A program made the position numbers and the translations under genes. Positions 901-63,621 of a stretch of 64,000 nt of DNA are shown one piece after another. The notes beneath the pieces are model-generated. The model did no database searches and was not told the origin of the DNA. It saw only the letters and a list, made by a program, of their open reading frames with translations. The first letter of the stretch is position 1. Every line of letters begins with the position of its first letter. The stretch is from Promethearchaeota archaeon Loki_b32 (GTDB lineage Archaea; Asgardarchaeota; Lokiarchaeia; Sigyniarchaeales; SOKP01): contig NJBH01000001.1 in assembly GCA_005223125.1 (NCBI GenBank), positions 45,935-109,934 on the forward strand, in the 5' to 3' direction.

Positions 901-1060
901 TTATTCTAACTTCTTTACGTTTTCTGGTATTGTTATCCAGTGATTGGCTTTTAAGTTTAAAGATTTAAGTGAGTGTAGGTTTTCTATAGTTTTAGGTATA
1001 CTGCTTAACTTATTATTGCTTAAATTTAAGGTTTTTAGCATCAACATATCTCCAATGTTT
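901..1060 (-). pseudogene. Leucine-rich-repeat gene remnant (3' end only)
   Basis: Minus-strand translation 'IGDMLMLKTLNLSNNKLSSIPKTIENLHSLKSLNLKANHWITIPENVKKLE*' gives two LxxLxLxxNxL units ending at TAA (901-903). There is no start codon and no further LRRs upstream in frame. Confidence 0.6.
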
Positions 1061-1206
1061 TTGAATCCAATTGTCGTAGAACAATAGGGGTTGGCTTCGA
1101 GACAAAAGATATAGATGTAGATAGCAGAGAAGAAAAATTAATGATCTGGGATTTTAGGGGGAAAAAGGTTTCGTTTTATGTTTCCTCAATATATTTATGG
1201 AAATAA
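1039..1206 (+). pseudogene. Ras/Roc-like small GTPase remnant (switch I to switch II only)
   Basis: The frame reads '...RRTIGVGFETKDIDVDSREEKLMIWDFRGKKVSFYVSSIYLWK*'. TIGxxF...hxIWD is the G2-beta2-beta3-G3 pattern of Rab/Roc GTPases. However, DxxGQE is broken (WDFRGKK), there is no P-loop upstream and no G4 downstream. Confidence 0.45.
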
Positions 1207-1298: not shown

Positions 1299-1700
1299 TT
1301 AATCCAAAGGAAAAATGTTATTTTTAACTTCTTTTATATCTTTAAGCCCATGATCTGTAGAATAAATTACTAAATTATTTAGATCTGCACATCCACTTAT
1401 ATAAGCATCTACTAGTGATAATAATTGAGGATATTTACATTTAAAAATTCCAGATCTTATTGTTAATTGGTCATTTATATCAAGAATTTTTATTTTACTG
1501 TTTCTAAGAGAAATATTTCTAATTTGGGCGGTTTCTTTGCCTAATTTTTCACATGTCTTATAAAAATTCTCACATAAATTTAATTCTAATGTAAATGCTT
1601 TAATGGTTTCATTTTTTATTTGGTTGAAAATCTTTTTGATGGTTTGATTACCACTAAAAAATAATTCAAAAATCCCTGTATCTAAAAATATACTTTTCAT
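1299..1700 (-). CDS. vapC: PIN-domain toxin (VapC family)
   Basis: 133-aa ORF. It has the N-terminal acidic strand 'IFLDTGIF' and the C-terminal 'IYSTDHGL' typical of PIN nucleases. It starts 22 nt downstream of an AbrB-type antitoxin gene. Confidence 0.8.
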   Translation of the reverse strand: MKSIFLDTGIFELFFSGNQTIKKIFNQIKNETIKAFTLELNLCENFYKTCEKLGKETAQIRNISLRNSKIKILDINDQLTIRSGIFKCKYPQLLSLVDAYISGCADLNNLVIYSTDHGLKDIKEVKNNIFPLD

Positions 1701-1722
1701 AATTTATTTATAATTCTCATTT

Positions 1723-1983
1723 TCATTTTTTCTCAGTTTCCTTTATTCTTTCTTTTCTTCTATCTTCATGTATTTCTCGTATCATTTCATAACCTAATTC
1801 TTTAGAATCAACTCCAAATAAATCTTCTAATTCTATGATTGGAATATATAATAATCCTAGTTTATGTTCTTTAACGATGAGTTTAGACCCATCTTTTATA
1901 TTTAATTTTTTCCTTAATTTTGAAGGAATTGTAACCATTCCTCGACTTGTAACTGTTACTTCGTTTTTCATTTTTATCATCAA
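1723..1983 (-). CDS. vapB: SpoVT/AbrB-type antitoxin (VapB family)
   Basis: 'VTVTSRGMVTIPSKLRKKLNIKDGSKL' is the AbrB looped-hinge-helix motif. It forms a bicistronic pair with the PIN gene. The real start may be the internal MKNEV. Confidence 0.8.
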   Translation of the reverse strand: MMIKMKNEVTVTSRGMVTIPSKLRKKLNIKDGSKLIVKEHKLGLLYIPIIELEDLFGVDSKELGYEMIREIHEDRRKERIKETEKK

Positions 1984-2167: not shown

Positions 2168-2340
2168 TTATATAATATATTGACAAATCTGTTTATTATT
2201 ATTTAAATTTAGGTTTTTTAGCATCAATATTTCTCCAATTGAATCTGGAATTTTATCAAATTGTTTGAGCTAACGTTTAGATTCTTCAATTTAAAAAGCA
2301 GTCCTCTCGCATTTGGAAATGTTTCAATGTTATTGAAAAG
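2168..2340 (-). pseudogene. Leucine-rich-repeat gene remnant with frameshift and stops
   Basis: Minus strand reads 'NNIETFPNARGLLFKLKNLNVSSNNLIKFQIQLEKY*'. After a -1/+1 shift it reads 'IGEILMLKNLNLNNNKQICQYII*'. The DNA around 2203-2243 is nearly identical to 1015-1056. Confidence 0.55.
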
Positions 2341-2461
2341 TAAAAAAATTATGATAATCGAACCAAAAGATCTGATTCCCATTTTTGCTTCATACTTTTA
2401 ATTTTGTGACATAGAAGATATTTATAAATTTATAAATATAATTTACTTTTATATTTCTATA

Positions 2462-2695
2462 ATGACACAAAAAACTATTTCATTACCTGAAGATGTATAC
2501 AATGCGTTAAAAAAACAAAAGCGTAAAGGAGAATCCTTTTCTGAACTCATCAGCCGGTTATTACACGAAAAACATGCGAGAGAGAGAAATCTAGAAAAAC
2601 TTGCGGGTAGTTTAAAAGAGGATGATGAGTGGGATCGCATTTTGGAGGATATTTACGAAGATCGTAAAAAACCAGCACGATTCAAGGGAGAATAG
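2462..2695 (+). CDS. vapB: Antitoxin of VapB/COG1753-like type
   Basis: 'KTISLPEDVYNALKKQKRKGESFSELISRLL' fits the small archaeal antitoxin pattern (strand then helix). The stop lies just before the start of the PIN gene. Confidence 0.7.
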   Translation: MTQKTISLPEDVYNALKKQKRKGESFSELISRLLHEKHARERNLEKLAGSLKEDDEWDRILEDIYEDRKKPARFKGE

Positions 2696-2698
2696 ATA

Positions 2699-3127
2699 AT
2701 GGGAGTACTTGATTCAGACTTAATTATTGCTTTTTTAAGGGGTAGAGATAATGCGTATGAAGTTTTTCAGGATTTGAAAAAGCAACAAGAAAGCTTAAAA
2801 ACAACGGTATTTAATGTTGCAGAATTATATAAAGGATGTTACGCTATGAGGAATGTCGCAAAAGGTTTACTAAAAGTTAGAAATCTTATTGAATCACTTA
2901 ATGATATTTTAGATTTTAATGAAAAAGCAATTCAAGAGTATGCAAAAATTTCAGCAGATTTAAAGAAGAGAGGAAGTCCCATTGGGACCATGGATGAATT
3001 AATTGCTAGTATATGTCTTGCAAATAATGAAATCTTCTATACGAGAAATAAAGATCATTTTGAAAAGATAGAACAGCTTTCTATAGTAAATTGGTATGAA
3101 ATGGGTGAAAAGCTAAAAATGAAATAA
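2699..3127 (+). CDS. vapC: PIN-domain toxin (VapC family)
   Basis: Contains 'VLDSDLIIAFLRG' (first acidic strand), a conserved E/D further on and 'FYTRNKDHF' near the C-terminus. It is tightly coupled to the upstream antitoxin. Confidence 0.85.
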   Translation: MGVLDSDLIIAFLRGRDNAYEVFQDLKKQQESLKTTVFNVAELYKGCYAMRNVAKGLLKVRNLIESLNDILDFNEKAIQEYAKISADLKKRGSPIGTMDELIASICLANNEIFYTRNKDHFEKIEQLSIVNWYEMGEKLKMK

Positions 3128-5550: not shown

Positions 5551-6690
5551 ATGGCGGAATATGATTTTACCTTTAAAATAGTACTTGTTGGTGATGCGTC
5601 TGAAGGAAAATCATATTTTGCGAGGAGTTTTTGCTATAATATCTTTAATAGTGATACAAGAATGACTATTGGAGTAGATTTTTTTGTTAGAAGTATAAAC
5701 ATGCTTGGAAAAAATATTAAATTTCAAATATGGGACATGGGGGCCGAGGAAAGATTTAGATTTTTGGTTCCAACATATTGTAGAGGCGCCAGTGGTGGTA
5801 TAATAGTATACGATATCAAAAACGCTAATTCTTTAGCACATATTCTTGAAAATGTTCAGATAATAAGACGAGAAGCTGGAGACGTTCCAATAGTAATAAT
5901 CGGAACTAAATGTGTAGAAGATGATAAAGAACCTTCAAGAGATCAAGGAACACAAATAGATGAATCAGAAGATCGACAAAAAGTTGAAAAGATCTTTGAG
6001 AACTTAGCAGAAACTTTACTTGAAGGAGTTCCCCAAAATATAATAATAGTACCTAAGCCTTTAGAATTAATAAAAAGACCCTACATCGATAAATGGCCAG
6101 AATTCAGAGTAAATGAACACTTAGTACTTAAATTAGAAAGGAATAGAACTAATATATATGTTGGAGGGAGATTATTCAATCATTGCAAGTATTTACTATT
6201 AAATATTGATCATTATGAATTTAAAGAGTATGATGAGATTGAATCTATCGATGAAACGGCAGAAAAGCTTGGGGATTCAATGCACGGAATCGGATTCCAA
6301 AAGTATCATGTATCTCCTGAAACTGAATTTTGGGGGCATTCTTCAAATATTCAAGCTTGGTATGAAAATAAGTACGATACCCGTCTATTACACAGAAACT
6401 TAGCATTTCCCTTGTTGGAAGCTCTTATAAAAACCGGGGATCTTTTGGCAAAAAAAGTATTAAAAGAAGAGATTGCGCAGAGACTTGAAAGTGGTTATCC
6501 TTCAGTGGTTTTGTACTTGATTAAAGAAAAATATTTGAAATATTTAAGTCAAGAAGAATTGAATACAATCTTCGAAAATCCAAAATTTCAAAAGAATTTG
6601 TCAAAATGGTTTAAAGATTCCAAACTTATTCCTAGATGGTTGTCTAGAAAAATTAAATCTAAATTAAAAGATCTGAATTTGTGGAAATAG
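5551..6690 (+). CDS. Ras-superfamily small GTPase-like protein with degenerate G3/G4 motifs and a ~250-aa unknown C-terminal extension
   Basis: G1 is 'GDASEGKS' and G2 is 'RMTIGVDF'. G3 is 'WDMGAEERF' (versus WDTAGQERF) and G4 is 'GTKCVE' (versus NKxD). No SAK-type G5 is visible. The tail contains 'FWGHSSNIQAWYENKYDTRLLHRNLAFPLLEALIKTGDLLAKKVLKEEIAQRLESG'. Confidence 0.75.
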   Translation: MAEYDFTFKIVLVGDASEGKSYFARSFCYNIFNSDTRMTIGVDFFVRSINMLGKNIKFQIWDMGAEERFRFLVPTYCRGASGGIIVYDIKNANSLAHILENVQIIRREAGDVPIVIIGTKCVEDDKEPSRDQGTQIDESEDRQKVEKIFENLAETLLEGVPQNIIIVPKPLELIKRPYIDKWPEFRVNEHLVLKLERNRTNIYVGGRLFNHCKYLLLNIDHYEFKEYDEIESIDETAEKLGDSMHGIGFQKYHVSPETEFWGHSSNIQAWYENKYDTRLLHRNLAFPLLEALIKTGDLLAKKVLKEEIAQRLESGYPSVVLYLIKEKYLKYLSQEELNTIFENPKFQKNLSKWFKDSKLIPRWLSRKIKSKLKDLNLWK

Positions 6691-11260: not shown

Positions 11261-11530
11261 TTACATTATTTCTACTAGTTATTTTATTATCTTAATCAAG
11301 TTAGAATGGAAGGAACGTTTAGTTCAGGTACAAAATATCTTGCTTCACACTTGGCTCATAAAATTCCTTATGAAACTCAACAATTGTGTGGAGGGATTGC
11401 GTTTACTGATAATCTACGGATTGATAAAGCATTAGAGGCTGCAAAGGTTAAGGAAATAATAGGTGGTGCCCGAAATATTCAGCTTTATTTGGTTAGTAGA
11501 GCTATAAAAGATATGATTTTTCTTTTTTAA
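11261..11530 (+). pseudogene. Internal-deletion derivative of an acyl-CoA dehydrogenase paralogue (promoter/5' leader fused to last ~70 codons)
   Basis: 11261-11312 parallels 15651-15702 ('ttatcttaatca.gtta.aatggaagg'). 11313-11530 parallels 16758-16975. 25 of 71 codons differ from the intact gene, but only 4 change the amino acid. Confidence 0.8.
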
Positions 11531-11581: not shown

Positions 11582-12158
11582 TTATTTATTTTGAAGGCTT
11601 TCAATAACCTTTTCGTATTTTTCATGAATTAGGGTTTTGTCAAAATCTCAGGATTCTTGGAGCATTTTATCCTGTTCTTTTTCAGTAAAGTACTTCATTA
11701 CAGGGATAAAAAAATGCTTATCTTCTTTTTCAATATGTTTTGGGTAAAATTCAACTAAATCACCCAACAAATTTACAATTTCATCTTGTATTTTGACTTA
11801 TTGTGATTAGGAGAGAGTGATTTCTTTTCTAGATCTCTAAAAAGAATGTCTTCTTCTTTGCCATGATGAGTTCTATCAGCGTACATCCTGATGAAATCAA
11901 CAGCAATATCAATAAAAAGAGGATTCGTTTTATTGTATTTTTTCATTTTTTCAATTTCTTTTTTAATACTAGCATACGATTGTTGCATACAGTATCATAC
12001 CATTTCTTATCTTTACGAAGTTCCTTAATAATATTCATGCACATAAATTCCTTGTAATCACTGTATTTCTCTGGTAATTCGATCTCCAATAATGGCATTC
12101 TTTTTACAACCTTTCTTTTTGGTTTATCATTTTCACATACGCGACATTTTGCTTTCAT
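11582..12158 (-). pseudogene. Hemerythrin-like (HHE cation-binding) domain gene, decayed
   Basis: 'DFIRMYADRTHHGKEEDILF' and 'YPKHIEKEDKHFFIPVMKYFTEKEQDKMLQES*DFDKTLIHEKYEKV' are hemerythrin-domain signatures. They are spread over three frames, with an in-frame TGA at 11648-11650. Confidence 0.6.
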
Positions 12159-12655
12159 TTTTTCACCTTTTTTTAAAATATTCTAACGTCCATTCTGTAT
12201 TAGGACACGCTTATCTTAACACGAATTTTAAATTTTTAATAAATATTTTACAGTAATTAAAAAAAATGGTAAATAAGAACATTTAAACTTTTTAGTTTAA
12301 AATAATTGTTAGTTAAAATCTCTTATATCTATCAAGATTTTAATTTCATTAATTAATATATTTAGAAATATTCGCAAAAATAAGTAAAAATTTTTGCCTA
12401 AGAAAGTATAATAAACATAATATAACACATAGAAAAAAAGCCCTATCTCCCTAAAATTTTAAACCCTTTCACTTTTTTCTCTTAAAATACCTCAATTTAA
12501 CCCTATTACACTAAGAATAACCAAGATATTTTCTAACAGAATTTTGAAGTGTATTTTTCATAATACCAAGGTTTATTAAATTTAAAAATTTATCTTACAT
12601 ACTTGAACTGAGATATTTCAAAGTTCCAAGTATAAAATTAAAATTTGGTGAAAGT

Positions 12656-13349: not shown

Positions 13350-13814
13350 CTAATCCAAGTCAATAAAGTCTTCCAAGAAAAATAAATCAATTTCAAAAGC
13401 ATTAATTATTAATGGGTTTTTTAATTCTCCTTCTTTTTTAGCAAATAATGCAGGAATTTTATTTTTTGTTGCTAATGCGATTGTAGCACAATCGGGAAGT
13501 GATATTGGATTATTACATTTTAATATACTGATATCTCTAAGGAAATTTTCTAATGAATGTATGTTAAAAAAAATTGAATCAATGAGATTATCAACCTTTT
13601 CAAAAGCTCGTTGCCTTCCAATTTTTCTACATAGTATGTATTCAGTCTCTATAATTGCTAGACTCGTTGTCATTGGTGTAATTTCATTATTTAAAATATT
13701 TTTAAAAAGATCAGACTCATCCCCAGATAAAAGAAGTTCAATAACGGCACCCCCATCAAAAACAACTTCTTTAAAAGGATACTTCATCTTTTCTCCTCTC
13801 TTGGTACAACTCAC
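13350..13814 (-). CDS. vapC: PIN-domain toxin
   Basis: Contains 'KEVVFDGGAVIELLL', '...TSLAIIETEYIL...' and a C-terminal acidic region. It overlaps the upstream RHH gene. The likely start is the internal MKYPF. Confidence 0.7.
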   Translation of the reverse strand: MSCTKRGEKMKYPFKEVVFDGGAVIELLLSGDESDLFKNILNNEITPMTTSLAIIETEYILCRKIGRQRAFEKVDNLIDSIFFNIHSLENFLRDISILKCNNPISLPDCATIALATKNKIPALFAKKEGELKNPLIINAFEIDLFFLEDFIDLD

Positions 13815-14016
13815 TTAATACTTCATCAACATCTACATCTTCAATTTTTTTACAAGAATCTCGAAATTTTTCTTTGTCTTTCTTCTTCTGGTAATTTTCT
13901 ATCAAGAATTTTATTGTAGTATCATAATTTATTTTTTTTCTTCTTTTCATTTGCAATTGAGCTGCAATCTTTAGAAGATCTTCCTTAGTTTCATCATTTA
14001 TGGTAATTGTAGTAAT
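13771..14016 (-). CDS. Ribbon-helix-helix antitoxin; no canonical start codon for the full fold
   Basis: The frame is open from 14016 (just after a TAA) and reads 'ITTITINDETKEDLLKIAAQLQMKRRKKINYDTTIKFLIENY...'. That gives an RHH strand plus two helices. The first ATG/GTG/TTG is the TTG at 13956, downstream of the strand. Confidence 0.5.
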   Translation of the reverse strand: MTTITINDETKEDLLKIAAQLQMKRRKKINYDTTIKFLIENYQKKKDKEKFRDSCKKIEDVDVDEVLSELYQERRKDEVSF

Positions 14017-14848: not shown

Positions 14849-15265
14849 TTAAGATGATTCAAAAAATTGGATTTCTTTTGTTCTTTCAATAATTTCATTA
14901 TCGAAAGTGGCTAATGGGAAATTTAATTCAAATGCTAATTGAACTATGATTGCATCCATTCCCTTTAATTTAAAATTGAGTCCATGATTTTGTGCTTTAA
15001 GCATTCTCTTTTCATTCAGTTCGTAAATCTTAATTTTTTTTTCTTTAACCCAATTTTGGATTATTTCTTCACTTTCCTTTGCTTCTTCTATTCCCACTCT
15101 CCTTGCAATGGCACAACATATTTCAATAGGGTTTATCATAGATACATGAAAATTTAATTCACCATTTTCCATTCTTTCAATAATACTAATGCTCTTCTGG
15201 TGAAATTTATCATTTTTTATTAAAGATGCAATAAAAACATTAGAATCTACGATTATATCTTTCAT
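14849..15265 (-). CDS. vapC: PIN-domain toxin (VapC family)
   Basis: Contains 'IIVDSNVFIASL' and the C-terminal 'PLATFDNEI'. There is a 4-nt overlap with the upstream AbrB gene. Confidence 0.85.
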   Translation of the reverse strand: MKDIIVDSNVFIASLIKNDKFHQKSISIIERMENGELNFHVSMINPIEICCAIARRVGIEEAKESEEIIQNWVKEKKIKIYELNEKRMLKAQNHGLNFKLKGMDAIIVQLAFELNFPLATFDNEIIERTKEIQFFESS

Positions 15266-15498
15266 TTTGTTCTATCCTCTTGAATCGCTTGTACAGAAGA
15301 AATTTCTGAAGGCCATTTCTTACTTACTTTCTCTTTAAGTCTCTTCCATTTTTTAAATGAAGATTCTATAGGTTTTATTAATATACCATCTTCAACTTCG
15401 ATTTCCTCGATAAGTGAACCTGGTTCTATGCCAAATTTCTCTCTTATTTTTTTTATCAAGGTAACTTGTCCTTTAGGTCCAACTTTTAATTTGGTCAT
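15262..15498 (-). CDS. vapB: SpoVT/AbrB-type antitoxin (VapB family)
   Basis: 'LKVGPKGQVTLIKKIREKFGIEPGS' is the AbrB motif. Confidence 0.8.
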   Translation of the reverse strand: MTKLKVGPKGQVTLIKKIREKFGIEPGSLIEEIEVEDGILIKPIESSFKKWKRLKEKVSKKWPSEISSVQAIQEDRTK

Positions 15499-15712: not shown

Positions 15713-16975
15713 ATGAAAATGATTACTGGTGTAGATATTTTAGATGAAGAGATAAAAGAAAAATTAAGAACAGAAAATATTTATAAAATATTTAATAATT
15801 TTATAATTCCACTTATAACAGAGGAAGAACGGGAATTTTTGGAGGAATTGGAGCGATTTTTACTCAAGGAAATTGAACCTAAAATGAATTTAAGTGAGGA
15901 AGTGTACGAACTTTTTCCAATCCTAGGCAAGAAAAACTACATCCAGAGATTAAATCCTTATGGAGATTCTGAAAGGTATAACATGCGCTATGAAATGCTT
16001 TTAGCAATGGCGACATCGATTATTGATCCCGAGTTAGATTTGTCAAGAGTGGTCACTGGGGTAATATTTGCCAATCCATTGTTTCAATTTGGCAGGGGAG
16101 ATAGAATATCTGAGATTTTGAATGACATTATCACGGGCAAAAAGATTGGGTGTATTTGTATCACTGAAAGAAAGCACGGATCTGATGCTGTTAATATGGA
16201 AACTATGGTTAGTGATAAAGGAGATCATTTACTTTTCACTGGAGAAAAATTATATACGACTAATGGTCCAGTAGCAGATTATTTTATAGTATATGGAGTC
16301 TCAGATATCTCAGATCCACGAGGAACCATGTATCAAGCAATTGCGGAAAGAGGGTATGAAGGATTGATAACAAATAGACTTGGCATTCAATCAGTTCCAC
16401 GAGTACAAATTGGCCAAACTCTTTTTAATTCTGTGAAAATCCCAAGAGAAAATATCCTTGGAGACAAAGGGCAAGGGTATAAAAATTTATTTTCTGGGCT
16501 TGTAGCGGAAAGATGTTCGATCATTGGGTCTAGTTTAGGGATTGGGTGGTTAACTGCAATTACAGGTCTTATTTATACAAACTTAAGAATTCAATTTGGC
16601 CGACCTCTATATGATTTTCAAGGAGTTTCGCTTCCGCAAACCCAGAATTTTATTGAACTCATGGCAGCTACAGAACTTGGTTTTAAGTCAGCTTCAGAGT
16701 ATAACAAGACAATTGAGCGAAAACATTTCGATCAACAGAAATTCATTAAATATAATGCAGCATTTAGTTCAGGTACAAAATATCTTGCGTCACACCTAGC
16801 CCATAAAATATCATATGAGACTCAACAATTATGTGGAGGTATTGCGTTTACAGATAACCTGCGAATTGATAAAGCCTTAGAAGTCGCTAAAGTTCAGGAA
16901 ATAATAGGAGGTGCTCGAAATATTCAGCTCTATTTAGTTAGTAGAGCTATTAAAGATATGATTTTTCTACTATAA
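15713..16975 (+). CDS. Acyl-CoA dehydrogenase family protein
   Basis: 420 aa. Contains 'CITERKHGSDAVNMETM', 'TNGPVADYFIVY' and the C-terminal 'QLCGGIAFTDNLRIDKALEVAKVQEIIGGARNIQ'. A purine-rich 'ggaaggtga' lies 7 nt before the ATG. Confidence 0.85.
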   Translation: MKMITGVDILDEEIKEKLRTENIYKIFNNFIIPLITEEEREFLEELERFLLKEIEPKMNLSEEVYELFPILGKKNYIQRLNPYGDSERYNMRYEMLLAMATSIIDPELDLSRVVTGVIFANPLFQFGRGDRISEILNDIITGKKIGCICITERKHGSDAVNMETMVSDKGDHLLFTGEKLYTTNGPVADYFIVYGVSDISDPRGTMYQAIAERGYEGLITNRLGIQSVPRVQIGQTLFNSVKIPRENILGDKGQGYKNLFSGLVAERCSIIGSSLGIGWLTAITGLIYTNLRIQFGRPLYDFQGVSLPQTQNFIELMAATELGFKSASEYNKTIERKHFDQQKFIKYNAAFSSGTKYLASHLAHKISYETQQLCGGIAFTDNLRIDKALEVAKVQEIIGGARNIQLYLVSRAIKDMIFLL

Positions 16976-17201
16976 TTAAAACAAATTTATTTAAAGACTA
17001 CTATTTAGTTGAATATATTAAACCACTGTTCATAGAAATTTTTAATACTGAGGAGAAAAAATAATATTACTAAAAATTGAGTAATTGAAAGTTCCACATT
17101 TTGGAAAGGTTTGGGATATTTTCTTTCATATTTTTGGCTTACATATAAAAGGTTTATAACATTAACATTAACATACTCTTTATATTTGAGATTATTATTT
17201 A

Positions 17202-17429
17202 ATGAGCAACATGGAGAAATCAAACGCAATATCAGATATGTTAAAGGGATTGAAGGAGATTAAAGAAGAAGAGAAAACTGAATTGCCTAATTGCGAATTC
17301 TGTGGTAAAAGCATCTCGGGCACTAAGTGGAATAAGGAATATCATCATATTAATATTTGTCAAAAACCAGAAAAACGATTTTTTTGTTCCCGTCAATGCA
17401 AATTAAAATGGGTTTTTAAAAATTTTTGA
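17202..17429 (+). CDS. Small FCS/TRASH-type zinc-finger protein (paralogue 1)
   Basis: 'CEFCGKSISGTKWNKEYHHINICQKPEKRFFCSRQCKLKWVF' shows a CxxC...FCSxxC spacing like FCS/MYM/TRASH fingers. It is a close paralogue of 18795..19004. Confidence 0.55.
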   Translation: MSNMEKSNAISDMLKGLKEIKEEEKTELPNCEFCGKSISGTKWNKEYHHINICQKPEKRFFCSRQCKLKWVFKNF

Positions 17430-17647: not shown

Positions 17648-18355
17648 GTGATTATGAGTAATGATGGTTTACCACAGACACGTAAAAAGGAGCAACAAAT
17701 TCCGCGTTTACAAATAGCTTTGGATTTTGAAAGATTAGATGATGCCTTGGCGATGGCAAAAGAAGTAGCTCCTTTTATAGATATTTTGGAAGCTGGAACT
17801 CCTTTAATAAAATCTGAGGGTATGCGAGCCATTCAAGCATTAAAGAAGGCACACCCGGATAAGTTAGTTTGTGCAGATTTAAAAACTGCAGATGCTGGAT
17901 ATCTTGAAGTACGAATGGCTGCCCAAGCGAAAGCTGATATTGTCACAATACTTGCAGATGCTTATGATATTACAATCAAGGAGGCTTTACGTGCAGCACA
18001 TGACTTTCACATAGAAATCATGGCAGATCTTATCATGTCTCGATCACCGACTATCAGATTAGCAGGCCTCATAGACCTTAATTATAAAGACACAAAATTA
18101 CATTATGCCCTTGTGCATAGCGGCTTAGATCGTCAAGCATCACGACGAGCTCCATTGTTAGAGTTAGAATTAGTAGCACGGTTACGAGACCATCCACGAC
18201 TAGCAATAGCAGGTGGGATAAGAGTCGACGATATTCCTAAATTATTAGCTTTTCCACTGGATATCATTATTGTAGGGGGAGGAATTATTCGTGCGAAAAA
18301 TGCATACAACGCAGCAGAGGACATTCGAAAAGCTATTTATAAGTATTCTATATGA
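17648..18355 (+). CDS. 3-hexulose-6-phosphate synthase / KGPDC family (OMP-decarboxylase suprafamily)
   Basis: Contains 'RLQIALDFERLDDALAMAKEVAPFIDILEAGTPLIKSEGMRAIQALKKAHPDKLVCADLKTADAG' and '...AIAGGIRVDDI...IIIVGGGI'. It is markedly GC-richer than its neighbours. Confidence 0.7.
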   Translation: MIMSNDGLPQTRKKEQQIPRLQIALDFERLDDALAMAKEVAPFIDILEAGTPLIKSEGMRAIQALKKAHPDKLVCADLKTADAGYLEVRMAAQAKADIVTILADAYDITIKEALRAAHDFHIEIMADLIMSRSPTIRLAGLIDLNYKDTKLHYALVHSGLDRQASRRAPLLELELVARLRDHPRLAIAGGIRVDDIPKLLAFPLDIIIVGGGIIRAKNAYNAAEDIRKAIYKYSI

Positions 18356-18630: not shown

Positions 18631-18794
18631 AATAGTCCCAGCATTATCTACAGCACTTAAAAAAGTCTATTTAAAGTTGCTTACACAAGTCGGAATATAT
18701 AAATTACCATTTTTTTTTAATAATTAAAAGGTTATATATAAAATGTTATTCTCATTCACATTAGCATATTAGTAAAATAAGGAATTATTATTCA

Positions 18795-19004
18795 ATGAAC
18801 AACATAGACCCCTTTGAGGAATTAAAAGAGATCAATCAAAAAGAGGAAAAAATGGCTTATTGTGAATCCTGTGGTAGAAGCATCAGGAATAATAAGTGGA
18901 AGAAGCAACATCACCATATCAATATTTGTCAACACCCCATAAAACGATTTTTCTGTTCCCGTCAATGTAAGTTAAAATGGGTTTTTAAGAAAGTAAAAGT
19001 CTAA
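18795..19004 (+). CDS. Small FCS/TRASH-type zinc-finger protein (paralogue 2)
   Basis: 'CESCGRSIRNNKWKKQHHHINICQHPIKRFFCSRQCKLKWVF'. The 3' ~60 nt are about 90% identical to paralogue 1. Confidence 0.55.
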   Translation: MNNIDPFEELKEINQKEEKMAYCESCGRSIRNNKWKKQHHHINICQHPIKRFFCSRQCKLKWVFKKVKV

Positions 19005-22591: not shown

Positions 22592-24706
22592 TTACTTTTG
22601 CTTTTTCAATTTCAATATGATAATTGAAATCCCTAAAATCGCTCCTATTATCATAAATAAATTATATCCTGAAATTTGTTGTTGAGGGGGATATCTTTTT
22701 TTCACAAGTACACTCTCAATACCTATATTCCCTGGTCTATCTTGAGCGTAAAAGGTTATTAAAATATCTCCCCCATGAATATTGTACCAAATGCTTTGAT
22801 TTATTACACCATTTAATTCAGAAAAAGTTATATTTGTGATCCCTCCATCTAATGAATACCACATAGATTCTAAATTAAGTTCATCAATAGAAATTTGAAA
22901 AGTTGGAGCTTTTGTTTCAAAAACATCATTGTTATTTGGTGATGTTATTATAATTATTGGAGCAGTTGTATCTTTTTCAATTTTTATATTGGTAAAACCT
23001 AGATATCCAAGTGAATCATTAGCATAAAATTGAATTGTGACTTGTCCGTCATTGAGTTCAGTCCATGCAGTTTGATTAATTTGCTCTAGAGTTCCATAAA
23101 AAGTATAATTAGTATCCCCTCCATCGATCGTGTACCAGGTTCTATTTATTGGAGATAGATCATGGATTGTAATATTGAATGTAGGAGCTATGAAACCATA
23201 GATTTGATTTAGAGATGGAGAGTTGATTATAATCTCAGGAGCAGTCAAATTTTTGACCACAACCACCTCTGATTTTCCTATATATCCCCTCGAATCATTT
23301 GCATAGAAAATAATTTCGATTGGACCCTCTGGAGCATTACTCCATTCAGTTTGATTAATTACTCCTGCTAATCCTGTGAAAGTAATGTTTTTTATACCAT
23401 CATCAATAGAATACCATTTTGAATCTGCAATACCTTCATCTATTGATATCTCAAAATATGGTGAATTTTCATAGGTTTCATTAACATTAGGATAAGTTAT
23501 CGAAATTACTGGAGCATCCCACCAAATAGGTAAAAAGTCATAATTATCACCATACTTACCATAAAGATAATAAGGTTCTTCTCCTACTCCATCATCATTT
23601 TCATCTTTACCTTGATAATCATCCCAGAAATTACCAATATATGAATTGTTCCAGTCATTAAAACCACTTCCATAACTACGAGCATTTATTTGATTCTTAA
23701 GAAAAGTATTGTTGTAAAAGAGATTGTAAGCTCCTTGTATAATATACACTCCATGATCGGTATTATTTTTCAAAATATTTTGAAAAATTATATTAAAGTT
23801 TGCTTCATCGAAGTCTATCCCATTTTCAGAACTATTATAAATTTTATTACCTTTTACTATGTTTTGGTGAGCAAGAGTTAAAAAAATACCATTACTTCGG
23901 CTATTATAAATTTTATTTTTTAAAATCTTGTTATTGCTTCCATAAACGTGAACCCCATGTTCACGGTTATTAATAATAGTGTTGTTTAATACAACATTGT
24001 TTTGACCAACGATATATATACCATTTTCCTCATAATGAGTCCCATTGCCATTATTGATTAATATATTTCTCGTAATATTATTGTCGTTGCACCAACTGTT
24101 TAATACTCCATGACCATTGTAAGAAATATTATTATTGTCAATGAGATTATGATGAGCAGCACCATAAAAATATACTCCCCTAAAATTATAGCATAAATCA
24201 TTTTCTACTACAGTATTGTTGTTACTATTTCCGTCTATTCTTATTCCATTACCGTAATTGTTTGAAATAATATTATTCCTAATCAAACCATTTCTAGTGG
24301 CACTAATTTTAAGTCCAGCTGAAGAAGCTTTAAGTAATGTGCAATTTCTAATTATAAAGTAAGCGCTTGACGCCTCAATAGAGATGCAAGTACTTGAACC
24401 ACTACCGTTTATTAAGATATTTTATAGTAAGTAAGGGGGGCTCCAAGTACCTCCTCCTGAACACCATGGTTCTATAACTGCTTCTTCCCAAGTATAATTT
24501 CCATATCCCTGATCGTCAATAATAAAAGGATTAAGAATCCAGTATCCACTTTTTTTAAGATTTGAGAAATTTTCATTTTTTAGACTATCATTTGAATATA
24601 TATTTCTATCAATGATACTATATGAAATTTGAAAAGATAATACAATAATTATAATTAATAATATGAAGCACTTTACTTTTCTGAGAGAATTCATAGTTTT
24701 ATACAT
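22592..24706 (-). pseudogene. Parallel beta-helix (PbH1/NosD-like) surface protein with three ~88-aa tandem domains and C-terminal TM anchor; one in-frame TAA
   Basis: ORFs 24422..24706 (signal/anchor 'VKCFILLIIIIVLSF', then '...GGGTWSPPYLL*') and 22592..24286 are in the same frame. The sequence between them also reads through as 'NILINGSGSSTCISIEASSAYFIIRNCTLL...'. The only break is TAA at 24422-24424. 'NNxIxxN' beta-helix rungs are present throughout. Confidence 0.7.
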
Positions 24707-25280
24707 TCCGGATTTTTATATTAAGAAATATCATTATCATATTTTAAATTTACCTTTTTAAAATCTGTCATATACCAACTCGCTAATCCCCCTATACCCT
24801 ATATAGTTATATTAAAAAGGCAGATCATCAAAATAAATAACATAAAAAGTTTAAAATGATTAAGACCAAAGTAAAAACATATAAATTTAATAGAGACATC
24901 TCTTGCTATAATATTTATAAGATGTTCTCATAATTTCACATTAATATTGAAATGCAAGGGCTTTATTTGAAAAAATATAGATTGTTAATATTTATCTACA
25001 TCATTTTAATATTAGGATTAGGTTTTCCAAAAAATATAAAGTAAAAGGGATCAACATCAGTTTAAAATTTAATAGATAATATCTTAGATAGAAGCTTTTT
25101 ATATCCTTTTTTAATGAGGATTTTCAACGTTGATTTATTTTATACAATACATTTTTTCATATATGATATTCTCGCATTAATTTTCTTTTGAAAGCACCTC
25201 AACAGACATTTAGTATATTTTTTGCAGATTTTGATTTTCACCATATTCATTTAAATACTTTCAAGAAATAATAAACTATT

Positions 25281-28200
25281 GTGTTAAATATAAAGAAAAT
25301 AAAAAGAAAAAATCTAGTAGGATTAAAAATGACACAAAAAAGGGTCAAATCAATTATGCTTATTTTTGTTATATGCTCCTATCTCTTATTCCAAGTTTCT
25401 GATTTTTATGATTGGGGTCTAGATAAGGATTCAAAATCTCTTTTGGGATTATCAGGTGATCATGCTACAGTTGAATGGGTAAGTATTTACGATGATCCAG
25501 AACCGTATAATTGGGATGAAGCTTATGATGTCGAGATTGATTCCTCAGGAAATGTTTATTGTGTCGGGGGTTCAATTAGAGATATGATTCTTGTAAAATA
25601 TAACAGTAAAGGAGATTATATTTTGAATCGTACCTGGCATCCAGGGAGCGATTATGCAGAAGCAAAAGCAGTCGCTTTAGACTCATCAAATAATATTTAT
25701 GTTGCAGGACAGGTTAACCTTCGTGAGGATATGTTTTTAATTAAATATAATAGTGACTGTGAATTTCAATGGGTTCGTATATGGGGGGGATCTCAAGAAG
25801 ATCCTTGCTGGGATATGGCAATTGACTCTTCAGATAACATTTATATCGCTGGAGGTACAGAAAGTTTTTCAGTAGGAGATTGCGATTTTTGTGTAGTAAA
25901 ATATGATTCTTCTGGCAATCAATAATGGAATCGTACTTGGGGGGGTTGGGATTTTGATTGTGCACGTTATATGGTAATAGATTCTTCTGATAATATAATT
26001 CTAGGGGGTAATACCGCAAGTTATGGGGATGGTTATTTAGGTTATTGTGATATGTGCCTTGTAAAATACAACAGCCTAGGTGTATTACAATGGGATATGG
26101 TATGGGAAAGAGCCGCTGGTCATTATGAATTCAACGATGATCTTGTAATAGACTCATCTGGTAATATTTTCACTTTTATACATGATCTTAATACCAATAT
26201 TCCAATACTCGCAAAGTTTGACAATTCAGGTAACGAAATTTGGAATCGAACATATCCAGGATTAGGATTTTTCGGAGTTAGTGAGATGGAAATAGATGCG
26301 TTTGATAATCTATATATAACTGATACTTTTGACTATAGAGATTTTGGATTCGCAAAATTCAACAAATATGGGGATTTCCTATGGAGTGAAACATGGGGAA
26401 CACTAGATGATGAGTTTTGTACTTCAATAGCCTTAAATTCAACTGATCATGTATATCTTGCGGGTTATAGAAGTTTCCACAGTTATGGTCCAATGATTCT
26501 TGTAAAATTTAAGATTAATCCTCCAGAAGCGCCATACTTTACTGATATCCAAGAAAATTTTACAATGTATGAAGGAGATATTTCAAAATCATTAGTATGG
26601 ACACCTATCGATGAATCGATGTTTTATGATTCATATTGGATAATGCAAAATGAAACTAAGATAATGGAAGGAGAATGGGACGGATCTCAAATTACATATT
26701 CAAATTTAGAAGAGCTAATCCCTGGTATCTATAATTTTACCTGTTTTGTAAATAACACTTATGGAAAACTAAACAGTTCTTCAATTTTTTTTACCATTCT
26801 TCCTAATCTTCACACGCCAAATATAGATAGAAATACTAGTGATTTGATATTAAATATTGGTACAAGCAATTTTATTATTTCCTGGCACGCAATCGATCTT
26901 GATGGAAATAATAATAGTTTTTGGATTACGCGTAATTCTTCTATTCTTGCATCTGGAACTTGGAATAATGATTCCGATATTATATTTATGGAGTCTGAAA
27001 TACTAAACGTAGGATACTATAATTACACATGTTTTGTAAACGATACTTCGGGTTTGAAAAATCAGACTTCTATTTATATTCAGATAATAAACCATGATCC
27101 GATTATATTCAATAATTCAATTGATTTTATTGTGAATGTAGGGACAACAGGATATTCTCTATCGTGGCATGCGAGTGATATTGATGGAAACACATTGATA
27201 TATTGGATAGAAAGAAATGGGGGTCTAGTTGCTCAAGATTCTTGGGTTAATGATTCAGACATTATTTACGTTGAATCTGAATTCCTAAGTGCTGGAATTT
27301 ATAATTATACTTGTTTTGTAAGCGATACTACAGGGGCTTTAAATCAGTCATCTATTTTTGTTAAGATAAACTCATATCCTTATTATTCTGATGTTACTCT
27401 ACCCTTAAACCACATATACGAACAAGATGCGGATTACGTCTTTAATTGTACGTGGACTGATATAGATGGCACAATTGGGAAGGTTTTACTTGAATTTGAT
27501 AGTTTCAATTTTACTGTAACGACCAATAAATCTGGAATTTTTACTTTTATATTAAATGATTTGAATGCGAATGAAAATGGGTATAATTATAGGTGGCATG
27601 CAATGGATAATGACGGAGCGTGGACATCAACAGATTGGAAGAATTTTGTTCTTAATAAGAAGGTAATTGAGCTAATAATTTTATTCAATGGCACTGAAGA
27701 CAATTATTTCTATGACTTAAACCCCTTTATTAATATTACAGTTATTAACCTTAATTCTACTCCAGGAAAGATTAATTTATATGTCGATGGGGAATTAATA
27801 CAACAAGAAACTGGATATCTTTTAGTGAATATTTCACAATTTTCACTAGGAAGTTTTAATATTACTGCGATTTTAACTGATGAAAATTATACCGGAAGTA
27901 TAATGAGTTGGCTTCATTTAAGTGAATCAATACCTCCAGAAATAATATTCGAGTTTTCTGAATCTTATGTGAATCTAACAGAACCGGAATATTTCCATGA
28001 TGAAATAGAAGTGATCTGTACTGTTAATGATTTCTCTCTGGTATCTTGGGTTTATTGTTGTGAAAATTCATCAGGAACTTTTTTAAATCATTCAATGTCA
28101 AGTTTAGGAAACAGTAATTGGACCTTTACTATAGATATTTCGGGATTAAATTGGAACGATGCAATTTCAGTATCTTTTTTTGCTAGAGATACTTGGGGGA

Positions 28201-28649
28201 ATATTGGATTAAACAATAATTTCACAAAATTATATACAATAAGAATACATGACTTTCAGAAGCCTGTTACAACCCTATCATTTATACCTCATGAAGGAAC
28301 AAATATTGTCAATAAATCAACCAAATTCTCTTTAACTGGTGATGATGGTTTAGGCTCTGGAATTGAAATTATAAGATACAAGATAAATGGCTCGGGATGG
28401 AGTGATTATAGTGCTTCATTTAATCTTACCAATTATAGTGAGGGATTTTATAATATTTCTTATTATTCAATAGATCATGCTGGTAACGTTGAGGAAATTA
28501 ATTCAATTATTATAGAATTGATAGAAGTACCTCAAGAAACACCTAAAAGTAGTTCTGCTATCCCTGGTTTTGATATCTTTTTTATATTTGGAATGATAGC
28601 CTTGATGACAATTTTCTTAATATGGCGGAGAGTTGAAATTAAAATTTAA
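25281..28649 (+). pseudogene. SBBP beta-propeller-repeat surface glycoprotein with three ~95-aa tandem domains and PGF-CTERM anchor; one in-frame TAA
   Basis: ORFs 25281..25925 and 25971..28649 share a frame, joined as '...VVKYDSSGNQ*WNRTWGGWDFDCARYMVIDSSDN...'. The '[IL]DSSGN[IV]Y..G' / 'K[YF]...G...W...W' repeats continue across the TAA at 25923-25925. The C-terminus is 'SSAIPGFDIFFIFGMIALMTIFLIWRR'. Confidence 0.75.
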
Positions 28650-31124: not shown

Positions 31125-32765
31125 TTATTCAATTCCAAGTTTGTTTTTTTCTTGTTGTACTAATTCTCGCCGTAATATTTTACCCGAACCTGATTTTGGA
31201 ATATTGTCAACAAATTCGACCTCGCGTATTTTCTTGTAAGCAGAAATCTTTTCAGCAACCCATTTCATAATCTCATCCTCAGTCACCTTGCCTTTAGACT
31301 CAGGATTTAAAATTATAAAGGCTTTCGGAATTTCACCAACATCTAATTCTTTAGACGGCTTCCCAATGACAGCTACATCAAATACATGTGGGTTTTTGAA
31401 AAGTAAATCCTCAAGTTCAGCGGGTGCGATGCTCCAACCCTTATATTTTATCATTTCTTTGATGCGGTCTAAAAGATGCTGGTACTCATCTTCATCGATA
31501 TATGCCATATCACCAGTTCTCAGCCATTTTTCACCAGTTTTTGGGTCAATCCAGAATGCGTCCCTAGTAGCTTCAGGTTTTTTCCAATAACCTTTCATAA
31601 CCTGAGGTCCTTTAATAACCAGTTCACCGACCTGCCCGCGTTCAGGTAACTCTTCACCAGTCTCTAAATCAATAATTTTATGAAAAGTATCTGGAATTAA
31701 GGTACCTTGAGATTCCATTTTAGGGCGATACATTGGATTTACAGCAACAACCGGAGAAGCCTCAGTCAAACCCCAACCATGTTGGATGATTATTTCTTTA
31801 GCATCGCATTTTTCTTTTGCCAGTTTATCAAACCTTTCAAGAAGCTCGAGAGGGATTGGAGCTGCACCATTGTTAAAGATTTTTAAGTTTGTCCAATCGT
31901 ATCCTTTTATATTTGGATCTTCAAGGTGTCTAACTACAGCGAGAAATATCGGAGGTACACATAGACTATATGTTACTTGATATTTTTCTATGAGTTCACA
32001 GAATTCCTTAACCTCGAATCTCGGGGTCACTACCTGTGCTGCACCTAACCATAATGTTTGGTTCATACACACATTTAATCCATATATATGGTAAAGAGGA
32101 AGTACCGTCATAGCGATATCTAATTCACTTAACTCGAAAATCTGGGATATTTGGATAACATTTGATACTATATTATAATGTGTGAGCATAGTTCCTTTTG
32201 GTAATCCAGTAGTTCCACTCGTATATACTAACGCAGCAAGATCTTCTTTTGGGTCGAAATTGTATTCTGGAGGATCTGGTTTTGTATTTGCTATTAGTTC
32301 TGACCATCCAAGTGTTCCCTCTGGCTTCTCTCCTGATCCTATTACTATAATATTTTTAATATTTGTTTTATCCTTAACTGCTGCTACATTTGGATATTCA
32401 GGTTGGGAAACGATGATTGTTTCTGCTCCAGAATCATTTGCTTCATATTCTACTTCAGTTTCTTTGAATAATGGATTCATAGGTACCAAAATAGCGCCTG
32501 CTCTTTCTAATCCCAAGAAGGAAATTTCCCATTGGATTGAATTTGGTCCATATAAAGCGACTCTATCTCCTTTTTTCACTCCTAAGTTTTTTAATGCCGT
32601 AGCGAATATGTCTACTTGATTTCTAAATTGTTTGTATGTCATATTTTTAGGATATAGGAAAGCTGGTCTATCTGGAAACCTTTTAGCTGTTTCTTCTAAA
32701 ACCTTATGAATAGGGATTTCGGGATAATAAAGATGACCCCTTTTGTATTTAACCACTAATTTCAC
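31125..32765 (-). CDS. AMP-dependent synthetase/ligase (long-chain-fatty-acid--CoA ligase-like)
   Basis: Contains the AMP-binding signature 'YTSGTTGLPKGTMLTH', 'GWGLTE', 'LRTGDMAYIDEDEY' and 'SGKILRREL'. Confidence 0.9.
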   Translation of the reverse strand: MKLVVKYKRGHLYYPEIPIHKVLEETAKRFPDRPAFLYPKNMTYKQFRNQVDIFATALKNLGVKKGDRVALYGPNSIQWEISFLGLERAGAILVPMNPLFKETEVEYEANDSGAETIIVSQPEYPNVAAVKDKTNIKNIIVIGSGEKPEGTLGWSELIANTKPDPPEYNFDPKEDLAALVYTSGTTGLPKGTMLTHYNIVSNVIQISQIFELSELDIAMTVLPLYHIYGLNVCMNQTLWLGAAQVVTPRFEVKEFCELIEKYQVTYSLCVPPIFLAVVRHLEDPNIKGYDWTNLKIFNNGAAPIPLELLERFDKLAKEKCDAKEIIIQHGWGLTEASPVVAVNPMYRPKMESQGTLIPDTFHKIIDLETGEELPERGQVGELVIKGPQVMKGYWKKPEATRDAFWIDPKTGEKWLRTGDMAYIDEDEYQHLLDRIKEMIKYKGWSIAPAELEDLLFKNPHVFDVAVIGKPSKELDVGEIPKAFIILNPESKGKVTEDEIMKWVAEKISAYKKIREVEFVDNIPKSGSGKILRRELVQQEKNKLGIE

Positions 32766-63115: not shown

Positions 63116-63228
63116 TTCAGCTCTAATTTAAAATATACTAATATTTTATATATAAAATTATGAATTTCAAATGAATTTAAATATAAATATATTGTAAGAA
63201 AGAAGAAGAATAAACCACAAATTTTAAG

Positions 63229-63606: not shown

Positions 63607-63621
63607 AATGAGGTTGTAATT

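What the first reader, a model, noticed from the sequence alone, without database searches (positions are those of the whole stretch)
22592..28649. Two divergent giant surface-protein genes, each interrupted by exactly one in-frame TAA
On the minus strand, ORFs 24422..24706 and 22592..24286 are in one frame. The intervening codons also read as protein (..WSPPYLL*NILINGSGSSTC..), so a 704-codon gene is broken only at 24422-24424.

On the plus strand, ORFs 25281..25925 and 25971..28649 are in one frame (..KYDSSGNQ*WNRTWGG..), so a 1122-codon gene is broken only at 25923-25925. There the SBBP repeat pattern K[YF]...G..[LQI]W predicts Leu or Gln (TTA or CAA, one substitution from TAA).

Both genes share the 574-bp divergent promoter region. 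Two neighbouring adhesin-like genes each silenced by a single nonsense codon, with no other decay, could have several explanations:
- very recent inactivation;
- population heterogeneity in a metagenome-assembled sequence;
- an on/off switching or read-through mechanism for surface display.
Basis: seen in the sequence. Interest (0 to 1): 0.6.

Follow-up and report, generated by a model that had tools for sequence, protein, structure and literature searches.

The report
Two freshly stop-broken Lokiarchaeal surface-protein genes
Two neighbouring cell-surface protein genes of an uncultured Lokiarchaeon each carry one single-base change that turns a conserved amino-acid codon into a stop; this looks like very recent gene inactivation, or possibly a base-calling error, and not a new decoding or switching mechanism.

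Summary
Gene A (minus strand, 24706..22592, 704 codons; beta-helix surface protein) has one in-frame TAA at 24424-24422. Gene B (plus strand, true start ATG 25326, ends 28649, 1106 codons; SBBP propeller with a Loki-CTERM anchor) has one at 25923-25925. The window comes from the MAG 'Promethearchaeota archaeon Loki_b32'.

- **Gene B:** seven full-length orthologs (59-68% identity) all have Leu at the stop position. The two orthologs I could read as DNA have CAA TTA TGG where the window has CAA TAA TGG.
- **Gene A:** most of the 20 aligned homologs have Glu there, so the likely change is GAA>TAA.
- **Split form:** no relative carries it.
- **Genetic code:** TAA ends 38 of 51 ORFs of at least 100 aa, and no other ORF pair in the window is one gene split by a stop. 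The code has not changed.
- **Switch or read-through signals:** I found no stable RNA structure at the stops and no invertible promoter.
- **Age of the stops:** neither gene has a second defect, and gene B still keeps the residues conserved in its orthologs. The stops are therefore very young, or they are artefacts.

Best reading: recent null alleles of dispensable surface proteins. A consensus error cannot be excluded without reads. One oddity remains: both stops lie 11-15 nt from rare G6/G7 runs. Interest is low.

The parts
22592..24706 (-). Gene A: 704-codon surface protein. It has an N-terminal hydrophobic signal/anchor, a right-handed parallel beta-helix, three repeats of about 93 aa and a C-terminal transmembrane tail. 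It is interrupted by one TAA. NCBI annotates only the downstream 608 aa (TKJ24164.1, CEE43_00340).
   Evidence: (PF05048 NosD 113 bits; PF13229 94 bits)
24422..24424 (-). Premature TAA in gene A (codon 95 of 704). It aligns to Glu in most of the 20 homologs (motif PY[IV]IEN[IV]TI). The inferred change is GAA>TAA, which is C>A at 24424 on the plus strand.
23561..24415 (-). Beta-helix (NosD/Beta_helix-type) region of gene A, lying entirely downstream of the premature stop.
   Evidence: TIGR04247 matches residues 98-382, 80 bits, far below its 300-bit cut-off
22676..23515 (-). Three tandem domains of about 93 aa in gene A, each starting AP.I.I..P (residues 398, 489 and 582).
   Evidence: (D13, spacing 279 nt)
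24707..25325 (.). The 619-bp AT-rich divergent intergenic region between the two start codons. No inverted repeats bracket it.
25326..28649 (+). Gene B: 1106-codon surface protein. It has a signal peptide, an SBBP beta-propeller, three repeats of about 95 aa, an OmpL47-type barrel and a Loki-CTERM anchor. It is interrupted by one TAA. NCBI annotates only the downstream 892 aa (TKJ24167.1, CEE43_00355).
25923..25925 (+). Premature TAA in gene B (codon 200 of 1107). It aligns to Leu in all 7 orthologs. The ortholog DNA in L001 and L002 reads CAA TTA TGG, so the change is TTA>TAA (T>A at 25924).
25467..26519 (+). SBBP-type beta-propeller repeats of gene B (recurring K[YF]..G...W..TWG blades). The stop falls inside one blade.
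   Evidence: (D2, D6)
28557..28628 (+). Loki-CTERM sorting domain of gene B (residues 1078-1101).
   Evidence: NF033507, 24.8 bits against a cut-off of 19.9
24435..24440 (+). G6 run (C6 on the coding strand, encoding Pro-Pro), 11 nt from the mutated base of gene A.
25939..25945 (+). G7 run (TGG GGG GGT, encoding the conserved W-G-G), 15 nt from the mutated base of gene B. Orthologs encode W-G-G without a G7 run.

Best explanation
Both genes encode membrane-anchored surface proteins of a Lokiarchaeon. Gene A is a beta-helix protein. Gene B is an SBBP beta-propeller protein with a Loki-CTERM anchor. Each carries a very recent loss-of-function allele made by one transversion: GAA(Glu)>TAA in gene A and TTA(Leu)>TAA in gene B.

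Inferred consequence: translation ends after 94 and 199 residues, so neither the ligand-binding body nor the C-terminal anchor is made. Any re-initiated downstream product would lack the signal peptide. The alleles are tolerated, or possibly favoured (for example by loss of an exposed surface receptor), because such fast-evolving surface proteins belong to large homologous families and are dispensable.

Shown: the stops, the ancestral codons, the intact relatives, and the absence of any further decay. Inferred: that the stops are real in the cells, that they abolish function, and why they persisted.
For: - **Gene B site:** all 7 full-length orthologs (59-68% identity, 1093-1107 aa) have Leu at the stop position. 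The DNA of two of them reads CAA TTA TGG against CAA TAA TGG in the window.
- **Gene A site:** the stop aligns to Glu in most of 20 homologs, and all 20 are continuous there.
- **Orthologs intact:** gene B orthologs are single intact genes on their contigs.
- **Normal code:** TAA terminates 38 of 51 ORFs of at least 100 aa. The other same-frame ORF pairs in the window are not interrupted genes, and the roughly 30 other ORFs scanned against Pfam gave matches consistent with intact genes, many over nearly the whole profile.
- **Recency:** 849 single-base changes (5.2% of all possible) would create another stop, yet none exists. Neutral divergence since inactivation is therefore at most about 1% (95% bound).
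- **No relaxed constraint:** gene B deviates at only 13 of 369 columns that are invariant in the 7 orthologs (3.5%). Intact orthologs tested the same way deviate at 2.5-12.3%. The changes in gene B are mostly conservative.
- **Gene decay occurs nearby:** the window also holds a hemerythrin-like gene split across three frames, an acyl-CoA dehydrogenase C-terminal remnant, and Ras/Roc and LRR fragments.
- **Non-random placement:** the two surface genes make up about a tenth of the coding sequence, so two randomly placed nonsense hits would both land in them only about 1% of the time. That fits purifying selection removing such hits elsewhere.
Against: - No reads and no second assembly of this population were available, so the base calls are unverified.
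- Both stops lie 11-15 nt from two of only eight G/C runs of 6 or more in the 64 kb. Among nonsense-capable sites in the two genes the joint probability is about 5e-4, though this test was chosen after seeing the data. Ordinary mutation does not predict this, and it hints at a context-dependent artefact.
- The lack of any further decay fits a sequencing error, or a still-functional gene, as well as it fits recency.
- Gene A has no close ortholog (best 44% identity), so its ancestral codon is inferred from homologs that may be paralogs.
Confidence: 0.6

Rival explanations
1. The two TAA codons are technical errors in the MAG consensus (base-calling, error correction or assembly). In the organism both genes are intact.
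For: - Both altered bases sit 11 and 15 nt on the same (5') side of rare plus-strand G6/G7 runs, and both are N>A on the plus strand.
- There is no other sign of decay, and gene B keeps its conserved residues fully.
- Context-specific Illumina errors near G-rich motifs are documented (PMC3141275).
Against: - In the documented errors, the trigger (GGC or an inverted repeat) lies within about 10 bases upstream in the read direction, the errors are strand-specific, and they come as runs of miscalls. Here the orientation does not fit. For plus-strand reads the G run lies downstream of the changed base, and minus-strand reads see no GGC upstream.
- The flanking codons match the orthologs (SSGNQ-WNRTWGG), so there is no run of miscalls.
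- Only about 5% of substitutions create stops. Two stop-creating errors would imply roughly 40 errors in total, yet the other ORFs checked in the window show no in-frame stop.
- Genuine gene remnants in the same window show that real decay occurs.
Confidence: 0.27
2. The stops are segregating variants. The MAG consensus captured null alleles that coexist with intact alleles in the natural population, giving strain-level on/off diversity of surface display. This is a sub-case of the best explanation in which the alleles are not fixed.
For: The inferred age is extremely young. Surface proteins of this type are highly variable, and the gene B orthologs show a mosaic identity pattern. The sequence is metagenome-assembled.
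Against: No evidence either way. No reads were available, and there are no near-identical contigs in any collection searched.
Confidence: 0.3
3. The TAA codons are decoded or bypassed (programmed read-through, a suppressor tRNA or local recoding). Full-length proteins would then be made at a regulated low level.
For: Only the bare pattern: exactly one in-frame stop in each of two adjacent co-oriented-by-promoter genes, with open and conserved downstream frames.
Against: - TAA is the main terminator here (38 of 51), and no other gene in the window has an in-frame TAA.
- Every relative has a sense codon at both sites.
- The 120-nt windows at and after the stops fold no better than shuffled sequence (z = +1.6, -0.2, +1.0, +0.4).
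- The two stop contexts share no motif.
- No tRNA gene and no Rfam family were detected in the window.
- From general knowledge, UAA is usually the least leaky stop codon.
Confidence: 0.04
4. Each gene has become two functional genes: a short secreted N-terminal protein plus a separately initiated downstream protein.
For: The NCBI annotation calls the downstream parts as separate proteins (608 and 892 aa). An ATG lies 15 codons after the gene B stop.
Against: No relative has the split. The stops cut through a propeller blade and the N-terminal cap of the beta-helix. The downstream products would lack a signal peptide while keeping a C-terminal surface anchor.
Confidence: 0.03

Closest known systems
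Nonsense-inactivated genes (young pseudogenes or null alleles) of prokaryotic surface proteins
   Same: A single-base nonsense change at a position that is a sense codon in all relatives. The rest of the ORF is intact. The genes affected are exposed, variable and belong to large homologous families. Other decayed genes lie in the same region.
   Different: Two adjacent, divergently transcribed genes are hit at once, and both hits lie beside rare G runs. Whether the alleles are fixed, polymorphic or artefactual is unknown.
Loki-CTERM sorting-domain surface proteins of Asgard archaea (NCBIfam NF033507), with SBBP propeller and OmpL47-type barrel modules
   Same: Gene B scores above the curated cut-off for Loki-CTERM. 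It has the OmpL47-type barrel domain (47.9 bits against a cut-off of 40) and SBBP-type repeats. Its orthologs carry PF06739.
   Different: The copy here is truncated by a stop at codon 200. Gene A has only a look-alike C-terminal tail (ISGYNLFMIIGAILGISIIILKLKKQK) that produced no Loki-CTERM match at E <= 0.01.
NosD / right-handed parallel beta-helix proteins (PF05048, PF13229)
   Same: Gene A matches both Pfam families strongly (113 and 94 bits).
   Different: It reaches only 80 bits against the 300-bit cut-off of TIGR04247, the NosD copper-maturation subfamily. It shares the beta-helix fold but is not a nitrous-oxide reductase maturation factor.
Phase-variable surface genes switched by homopolymer slippage or invertible promoters (bacterial contingency loci)
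   Same: Surface-protein genes found in an 'off' state, with G/C homopolymer runs near the lesions.
   Different: The reading frame is intact across both runs. The lesions are substitutions, not length changes. No inverted repeats flank the promoter region. The G7 run is absent from the orthologs.

Membership tests
Pseudogene or null allele by nonsense mutation | An in-frame stop at a position that is a sense codon in homologs, one base change away from that codon | tested here: met
   Gene B: Leu in 7 of 7 orthologs, and TTA in the L001 and L002 DNA. Gene A: Glu in most of 20 homologs.
Pseudogene or null allele by nonsense mutation | The split form is not conserved as two genes in relatives | tested here: met
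   All aligned homologs are continuous. The orthologs are single genes on their contigs.
Pseudogene or null allele by nonsense mutation | The stop is present in the organism's DNA (supported by reads) and no full-length product is made | not testable with these tools
   No reads were available, and the collections hold no second assembly of this population.
Stop-codon reassignment (altered genetic code) | The codon is depleted as a terminator and occurs in frame in many conserved genes | tested here: not met
   TAA ends 38 of 51 ORFs of at least 100 aa. No other gene in the window is interrupted by TAA.
Programmed stop-codon read-through | A conserved stop with a conserved stimulatory context or RNA structure downstream | tested here: not met
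   Relatives have sense codons. Folding z-scores are +1.6, -0.2, +1.0 and +0.4. There is no Rfam match.
Phase variation (homopolymer slippage or invertible promoter) | A frame change at a repeat tract, or inverted repeats flanking the promoter | tested here: not met
   The frame is continuous through the G6 and G7 runs and matches the homologs on both sides. No bracketing inverted repeats were found.
Loki-CTERM sorting-domain proteins (NF033507) | A C-terminal domain scoring above the curated cut-off | tested here: met
   Gene B: 24.8 bits against 19.9, residues 1078-1101. Gene A: no match at E <= 0.01.
SBBP beta-propeller repeat (PF06739) | A Pfam match above the gathering score | tested here: inconclusive
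   Gene B scores 19.3 bits against a cut-off of 20.5. The orthologs carry precomputed PF06739, and the NCBIfam SBBP LipL53-family model gives 88 bits, below its 400-bit equivalog cut-off.
NosD copper-maturation subfamily (TIGR04247) | A score above the 300-bit subfamily cut-off | tested here: not met
   80.4 bits. Only the generic beta-helix families PF05048 and PF13229 are met.

The most novel reading that the evidence does not exclude
The two stops are neither random mutations nor errors. Instead they would be products of a local, sequence-context-dependent process tied to the adjacent G6/G7 runs. One example is error-prone patch synthesis at polymerase-stalling G runs, creating a mutational hotspot that switches exposed surface-protein genes off, and by reversion on again, in Asgard populations. 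Alternatively, low-level UAA read-through keeps both proteins expressed.
Probability: 0.04. Interest if true: 0.6.

Novelty: new member of a known kind. Interest (0 to 1): 0.15.

Why it matters
- **Annotation:** four 'hypothetical protein' entries of Loki_b32 (CEE43_00340 to 00355) are really two interrupted genes. They should be flagged as pseudogenes or re-checked against reads.
- **Biology:** if the stops are real, they are an example of very recent loss of exposed surface proteins in an Asgard archaeon. That would fit rapid turnover of the large Loki-CTERM surface-protein repertoire, perhaps under pressure from viruses or syntrophic partners. No new decoding or regulatory mechanism is indicated.
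- **The G-run link:** the proximity of both stops to G runs is the only point that could lead somewhere, either as a quality-control warning for MAG consensus sequences or as a mutational hotspot.

Tried and rejected
1. **Genetic-code change:** rejected. TAA is the dominant terminator and no other gene has an in-frame stop.
2. **Read-through element:** rejected. No stable structure and no Rfam hit.
3. **Invertible promoter or repeat-mediated switching:** rejected. Only internal domain repeats and weak chance inverted repeats were found.
4. **Compensating frameshifts around the homopolymers:** rejected. The translation matches homologs codon for codon on both sides of each stop and through the G runs.
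5. **Known Illumina GGC-triggered sequence-specific error:** the orientation and pattern do not fit.
6. **Independent assembly of the same population:** none found.
   - Exact flank patterns with NNN at the stop gave 0 hits in metagenome contigs.
   - The gene B profile found no relative in genome contigs, so Loki_b32 itself is apparently not in that collection.
   - The exact fragments are not on record, and both protein clusters have a single member.
7. **Synteny in relatives:**
   - The neighbours of the gene B orthologs are not homologous to the window's neighbours. The one exception is a NosD-type gene downstream of the ortholog in L001.
   - The 64 Asgard loci fetched through the nearby acyl-CoA synthetase gene hold no ortholog of the A/B pair.
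   - None of the few family members in the fetched loci has an in-frame stop, but that sample is too small to give a base rate.
8. **Literature:** searches for Loki_b32, Loki_b31 and Loki-CTERM returned nothing. A search for stop-codon read-through in Asgard archaea returned nothing relevant.


Full report
**Observation.** The six-frame ORF list and direct translations confirm the description.
- On the minus strand, 24706..22592 reads as one 704-codon frame with a single internal TAA at 24424-24422.
- On the plus strand, 25281..28649 has a single internal TAA at 25923-25925.
- A scan of all same-frame ORF pairs separated by one stop found only these two as true interrupted genes. The others (2243-3127, 46837-45320, 63214-64000 and so on) are ordinary neighbouring genes or look like unrelated ORFs.
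- Alignment with orthologs puts the start of gene B at ATG 25326. That gives 1106 sense codons and a 619-bp intergenic region.

**Source and gene identity.** The downstream ORFs are identical to TKJ24164.1 (CEE43_00340, 608 aa) and TKJ24167.1 (CEE43_00355, 892 aa). Both come from the MAG 'Promethearchaeota (Candidatus Lokiarchaeota) archaeon Loki_b32', on a 244-kb contig. The window has about 30% G+C.
- **Gene A:** a hydrophobic N-terminus, a right-handed beta-helix (PF05048 113 bits, PF13229 94 bits), three repeats of about 93 aa and a C-terminal transmembrane tail. It reaches only 80 of the 300 bits needed for the true NosD subfamily.
- **Gene B:** a signal peptide, SBBP-type propeller blades, three repeats of about 95 aa, an OmpL47-type barrel (47.9 bits against 40) and a Loki-CTERM sorting domain (24.8 bits against 19.9).
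- Both are therefore typical Asgard cell-surface proteins from very large families: 1605 and 546 database hits respectively among the 8000 candidates scored.

**What stood at the stop positions.**
- **Gene B:** it has seven full-length orthologs (1093-1107 aa, 59-68% identity, 98-100% coverage). All read SSGNQLWN[RQ]TWG, with Leu where the window has the stop. In the two ortholog loci I could read, the DNA is CAA TTA TGG against CAA TAA TGG in the window. The change is TTA>TAA, T>A at 25924.
- **Gene A:** it has no close ortholog (best 44% identity). In 20 homologs that cover the N-terminus, the stop aligns to the Glu of the motif PY[IV]IEN[IV]TI in most, with Ser, Arg, Lys or Asp in the rest. 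The most likely change is GAA>TAA, which is C>A at 24424 on the plus strand.
- TTA and GAA are the commonest Leu and Glu codons in the window's genes.
- No homolog is split at either site, and the orthologs are called as single genes on their contigs.

**Not a decoding peculiarity.**
- TAA terminates 38 of 51 ORFs of at least 100 aa.
- The roughly 30 other ORFs scanned against Pfam gave matches consistent with intact genes, many over nearly the whole profile. Examples are AMP-binding 1-384/384, OMP decarboxylase 1-221/221, PMSR 2-150/153 and OCD 5-312/314.
- There are no tRNA genes and no Rfam matches in the window.
- The 120-nt segments at and after the stops fold no better than shuffled controls (z +1.6, -0.2, +1.0, +0.4).
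- No inverted repeats bracket the intergenic region.

**How old are the lesions?**
- 849 single-base changes in the two genes (5.2% of all possible) would create another stop, and none is present. If the genes were drifting neutrally, divergence since inactivation is at most about 1% (95% bound, substitutions only).
- Gene B deviates at 13 of 369 columns that are invariant in its seven orthologs (3.5%): 1 of 68 upstream and 12 of 301 downstream of the stop. Most of the changes are conservative. Intact orthologs tested the same way deviate at 2.5-12.3%.
- Its pairwise identities show no long branch.
- The stops are therefore very recent, or artefactual, or the genes are still under selection.

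**Real mutation or error?** This cannot be settled here. No other assembly of this population was found.
- Exact-flank DNA searches gave nothing.
- The exact fragments are not on record.
- Both protein clusters have a single member.
- The closest gene B relative is only 68% identical.

Arguments for real alleles:
- Both nonsense hits fall in the roughly one-tenth of coding sequence occupied by the two dispensable surface genes, and none falls in the other ORFs checked. That is what purifying selection would produce.
- Only about 5% of random substitution errors make stops, so two stop-making errors would imply dozens of errors in total. The flanks of both sites match the homologs.
- The window contains unmistakable gene decay that single base-call errors cannot explain: a hemerythrin-like gene split over three frames (11651-12182), the last 68 or so residues of an acyl-CoA dehydrogenase (11279-11527), and Ras/Roc and LRR fragments (904-1203).

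Argument for error:
- The window has only eight G/C runs of 6 or more, and both altered bases lie 11 and 15 nt 5' of one on the plus strand (G6 at 24435-24440, G7 at 25939-25945). Both changes are N>A on that strand.
- Among nonsense-capable sites of the two genes, the joint probability of such proximity is about 5e-4. It is 3e-3 if runs of 5 or more are used. The test was chosen after seeing the data.
- The runs encode the conserved Pro-Pro and Trp-Gly-Gly, so they are not errors themselves. The orthologs encode W-G-G without a G7 run.
- The best-described Illumina context error is GGC-triggered, directional, and produces runs of lagging miscalls downstream in the read direction (PMC3141275). 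It does not fit the orientation or the isolated nature of these changes.
- I leave the association unexplained.

**Mechanism and verdict.**
- Most likely (about 0.6, which includes the case where the alleles are still polymorphic): two very recent null alleles. Translation would stop after 94 and 199 residues and abolish surface display of both proteins. Such alleles would be tolerated or favoured because these proteins are exposed, fast-evolving and belong to large homologous families.
- Consensus error: about 0.27.
- Read-through or recoding, or functional gene splitting: a few per cent each.
The practical outcome is an annotation correction plus a concrete read-level check.

**Context.** Synteny gave no help.
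- Neighbours of the gene B orthologs differ from the window's. In L001, however, a NosD-type gene (32-42% identical to gene A) lies just downstream of the ortholog.
- The 64 Asgard loci fetched through the nearby acyl-CoA synthetase gene contain no A/B pair.
- None of the few family members in the fetched loci has an in-frame stop.

Noticed in passing
window 24435-24440 and 25939-25945: Both premature stops lie 11 and 15 nt from rare G6/G7 runs, of which the whole 64-kb window has only 8 of length 6 or more. Both changes are N>A on the plus strand, 5' of the run. The post-hoc joint probability is about 5e-4. No explanation found.
   Followed up: partly
window 11651-12182 (minus strand): A hemerythrin-like gene (HHE motifs DFIRMYADRTHHGKEEDILF and FYPKHIEKEDKHFF) is spread over three reading frames. 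That implies at least two frameshifts, and the one junction I read as DNA lies in an A-rich run. It is either a decayed gene or carries homopolymer indel errors. The stitched translation matches PF01814 at 8e-5.
   Followed up: partly
window 11279-11527 (+): An isolated remnant encoding only the last 68 or so residues of an acyl-CoA dehydrogenase C-terminal domain (PF00441 positions 82-149 of 150). Intact paralogs lie at 15713-16975 and 49691-51430.
   Followed up: partly
window 904-1203: A Ras/Roc GTPase fragment (+, 1039-1203, profile positions 18-58 of 162) overlaps a leucine-rich-repeat fragment on the opposite strand (904-1137). These look like remnants of Roco-type genes. An intact Ras/Roc GTPase lies at 5551-6690.
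   Followed up: partly
window 17190-17426 and 18765-19001 (+): Two paralogous cysteine-rich ORFs of about 75 aa flank the OMP decarboxylase gene (17648-18355). They share the motif ..C..CG.SI...KW.K..HHINICQ.P.KRFFCSRQCKLKWVFK.
   Followed up: no
window 1299-1983, 2462-3127, 13350-13956, 14849-15498: Three PIN-domain (VapC-like) genes were confirmed by Pfam, each next to a small ORF. One of those small ORFs matches the MazE antitoxin family. A fourth VapBC-like pair at 2462-3127 was judged by eye. That is a high density of toxin-antitoxin-like pairs for 64 kb.
   Followed up: no
window 31125-32765 (minus strand); loci L005-L064: The AMP-binding acyl-CoA synthetase is 76-88% identical at protein level in MAGs labelled as Promethearchaeota and as Thor-, Hod-, Hermod-, Odin-, Jord- and Freyarchaeota. 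That is unusually high conservation across Asgard lineages, or it reflects gene transfer.
   Followed up: no
gene B orthologs P0002-P0008 (alignment A1): The identity pattern is mosaic. P0006 is about 70% identical to both P0003 and P0004, which are only 58% identical to each other. This suggests recombination or domain shuffling among these surface-protein genes.
   Followed up: no
L001 4019-10100: In one relative, the intact gene B ortholog is followed 310 nt downstream, on the same strand, by a NosD-type beta-helix gene (820 aa, 32-42% identical to gene A). The pairing of an SBBP gene with a beta-helix gene therefore recurs in a different arrangement.
   Followed up: partly
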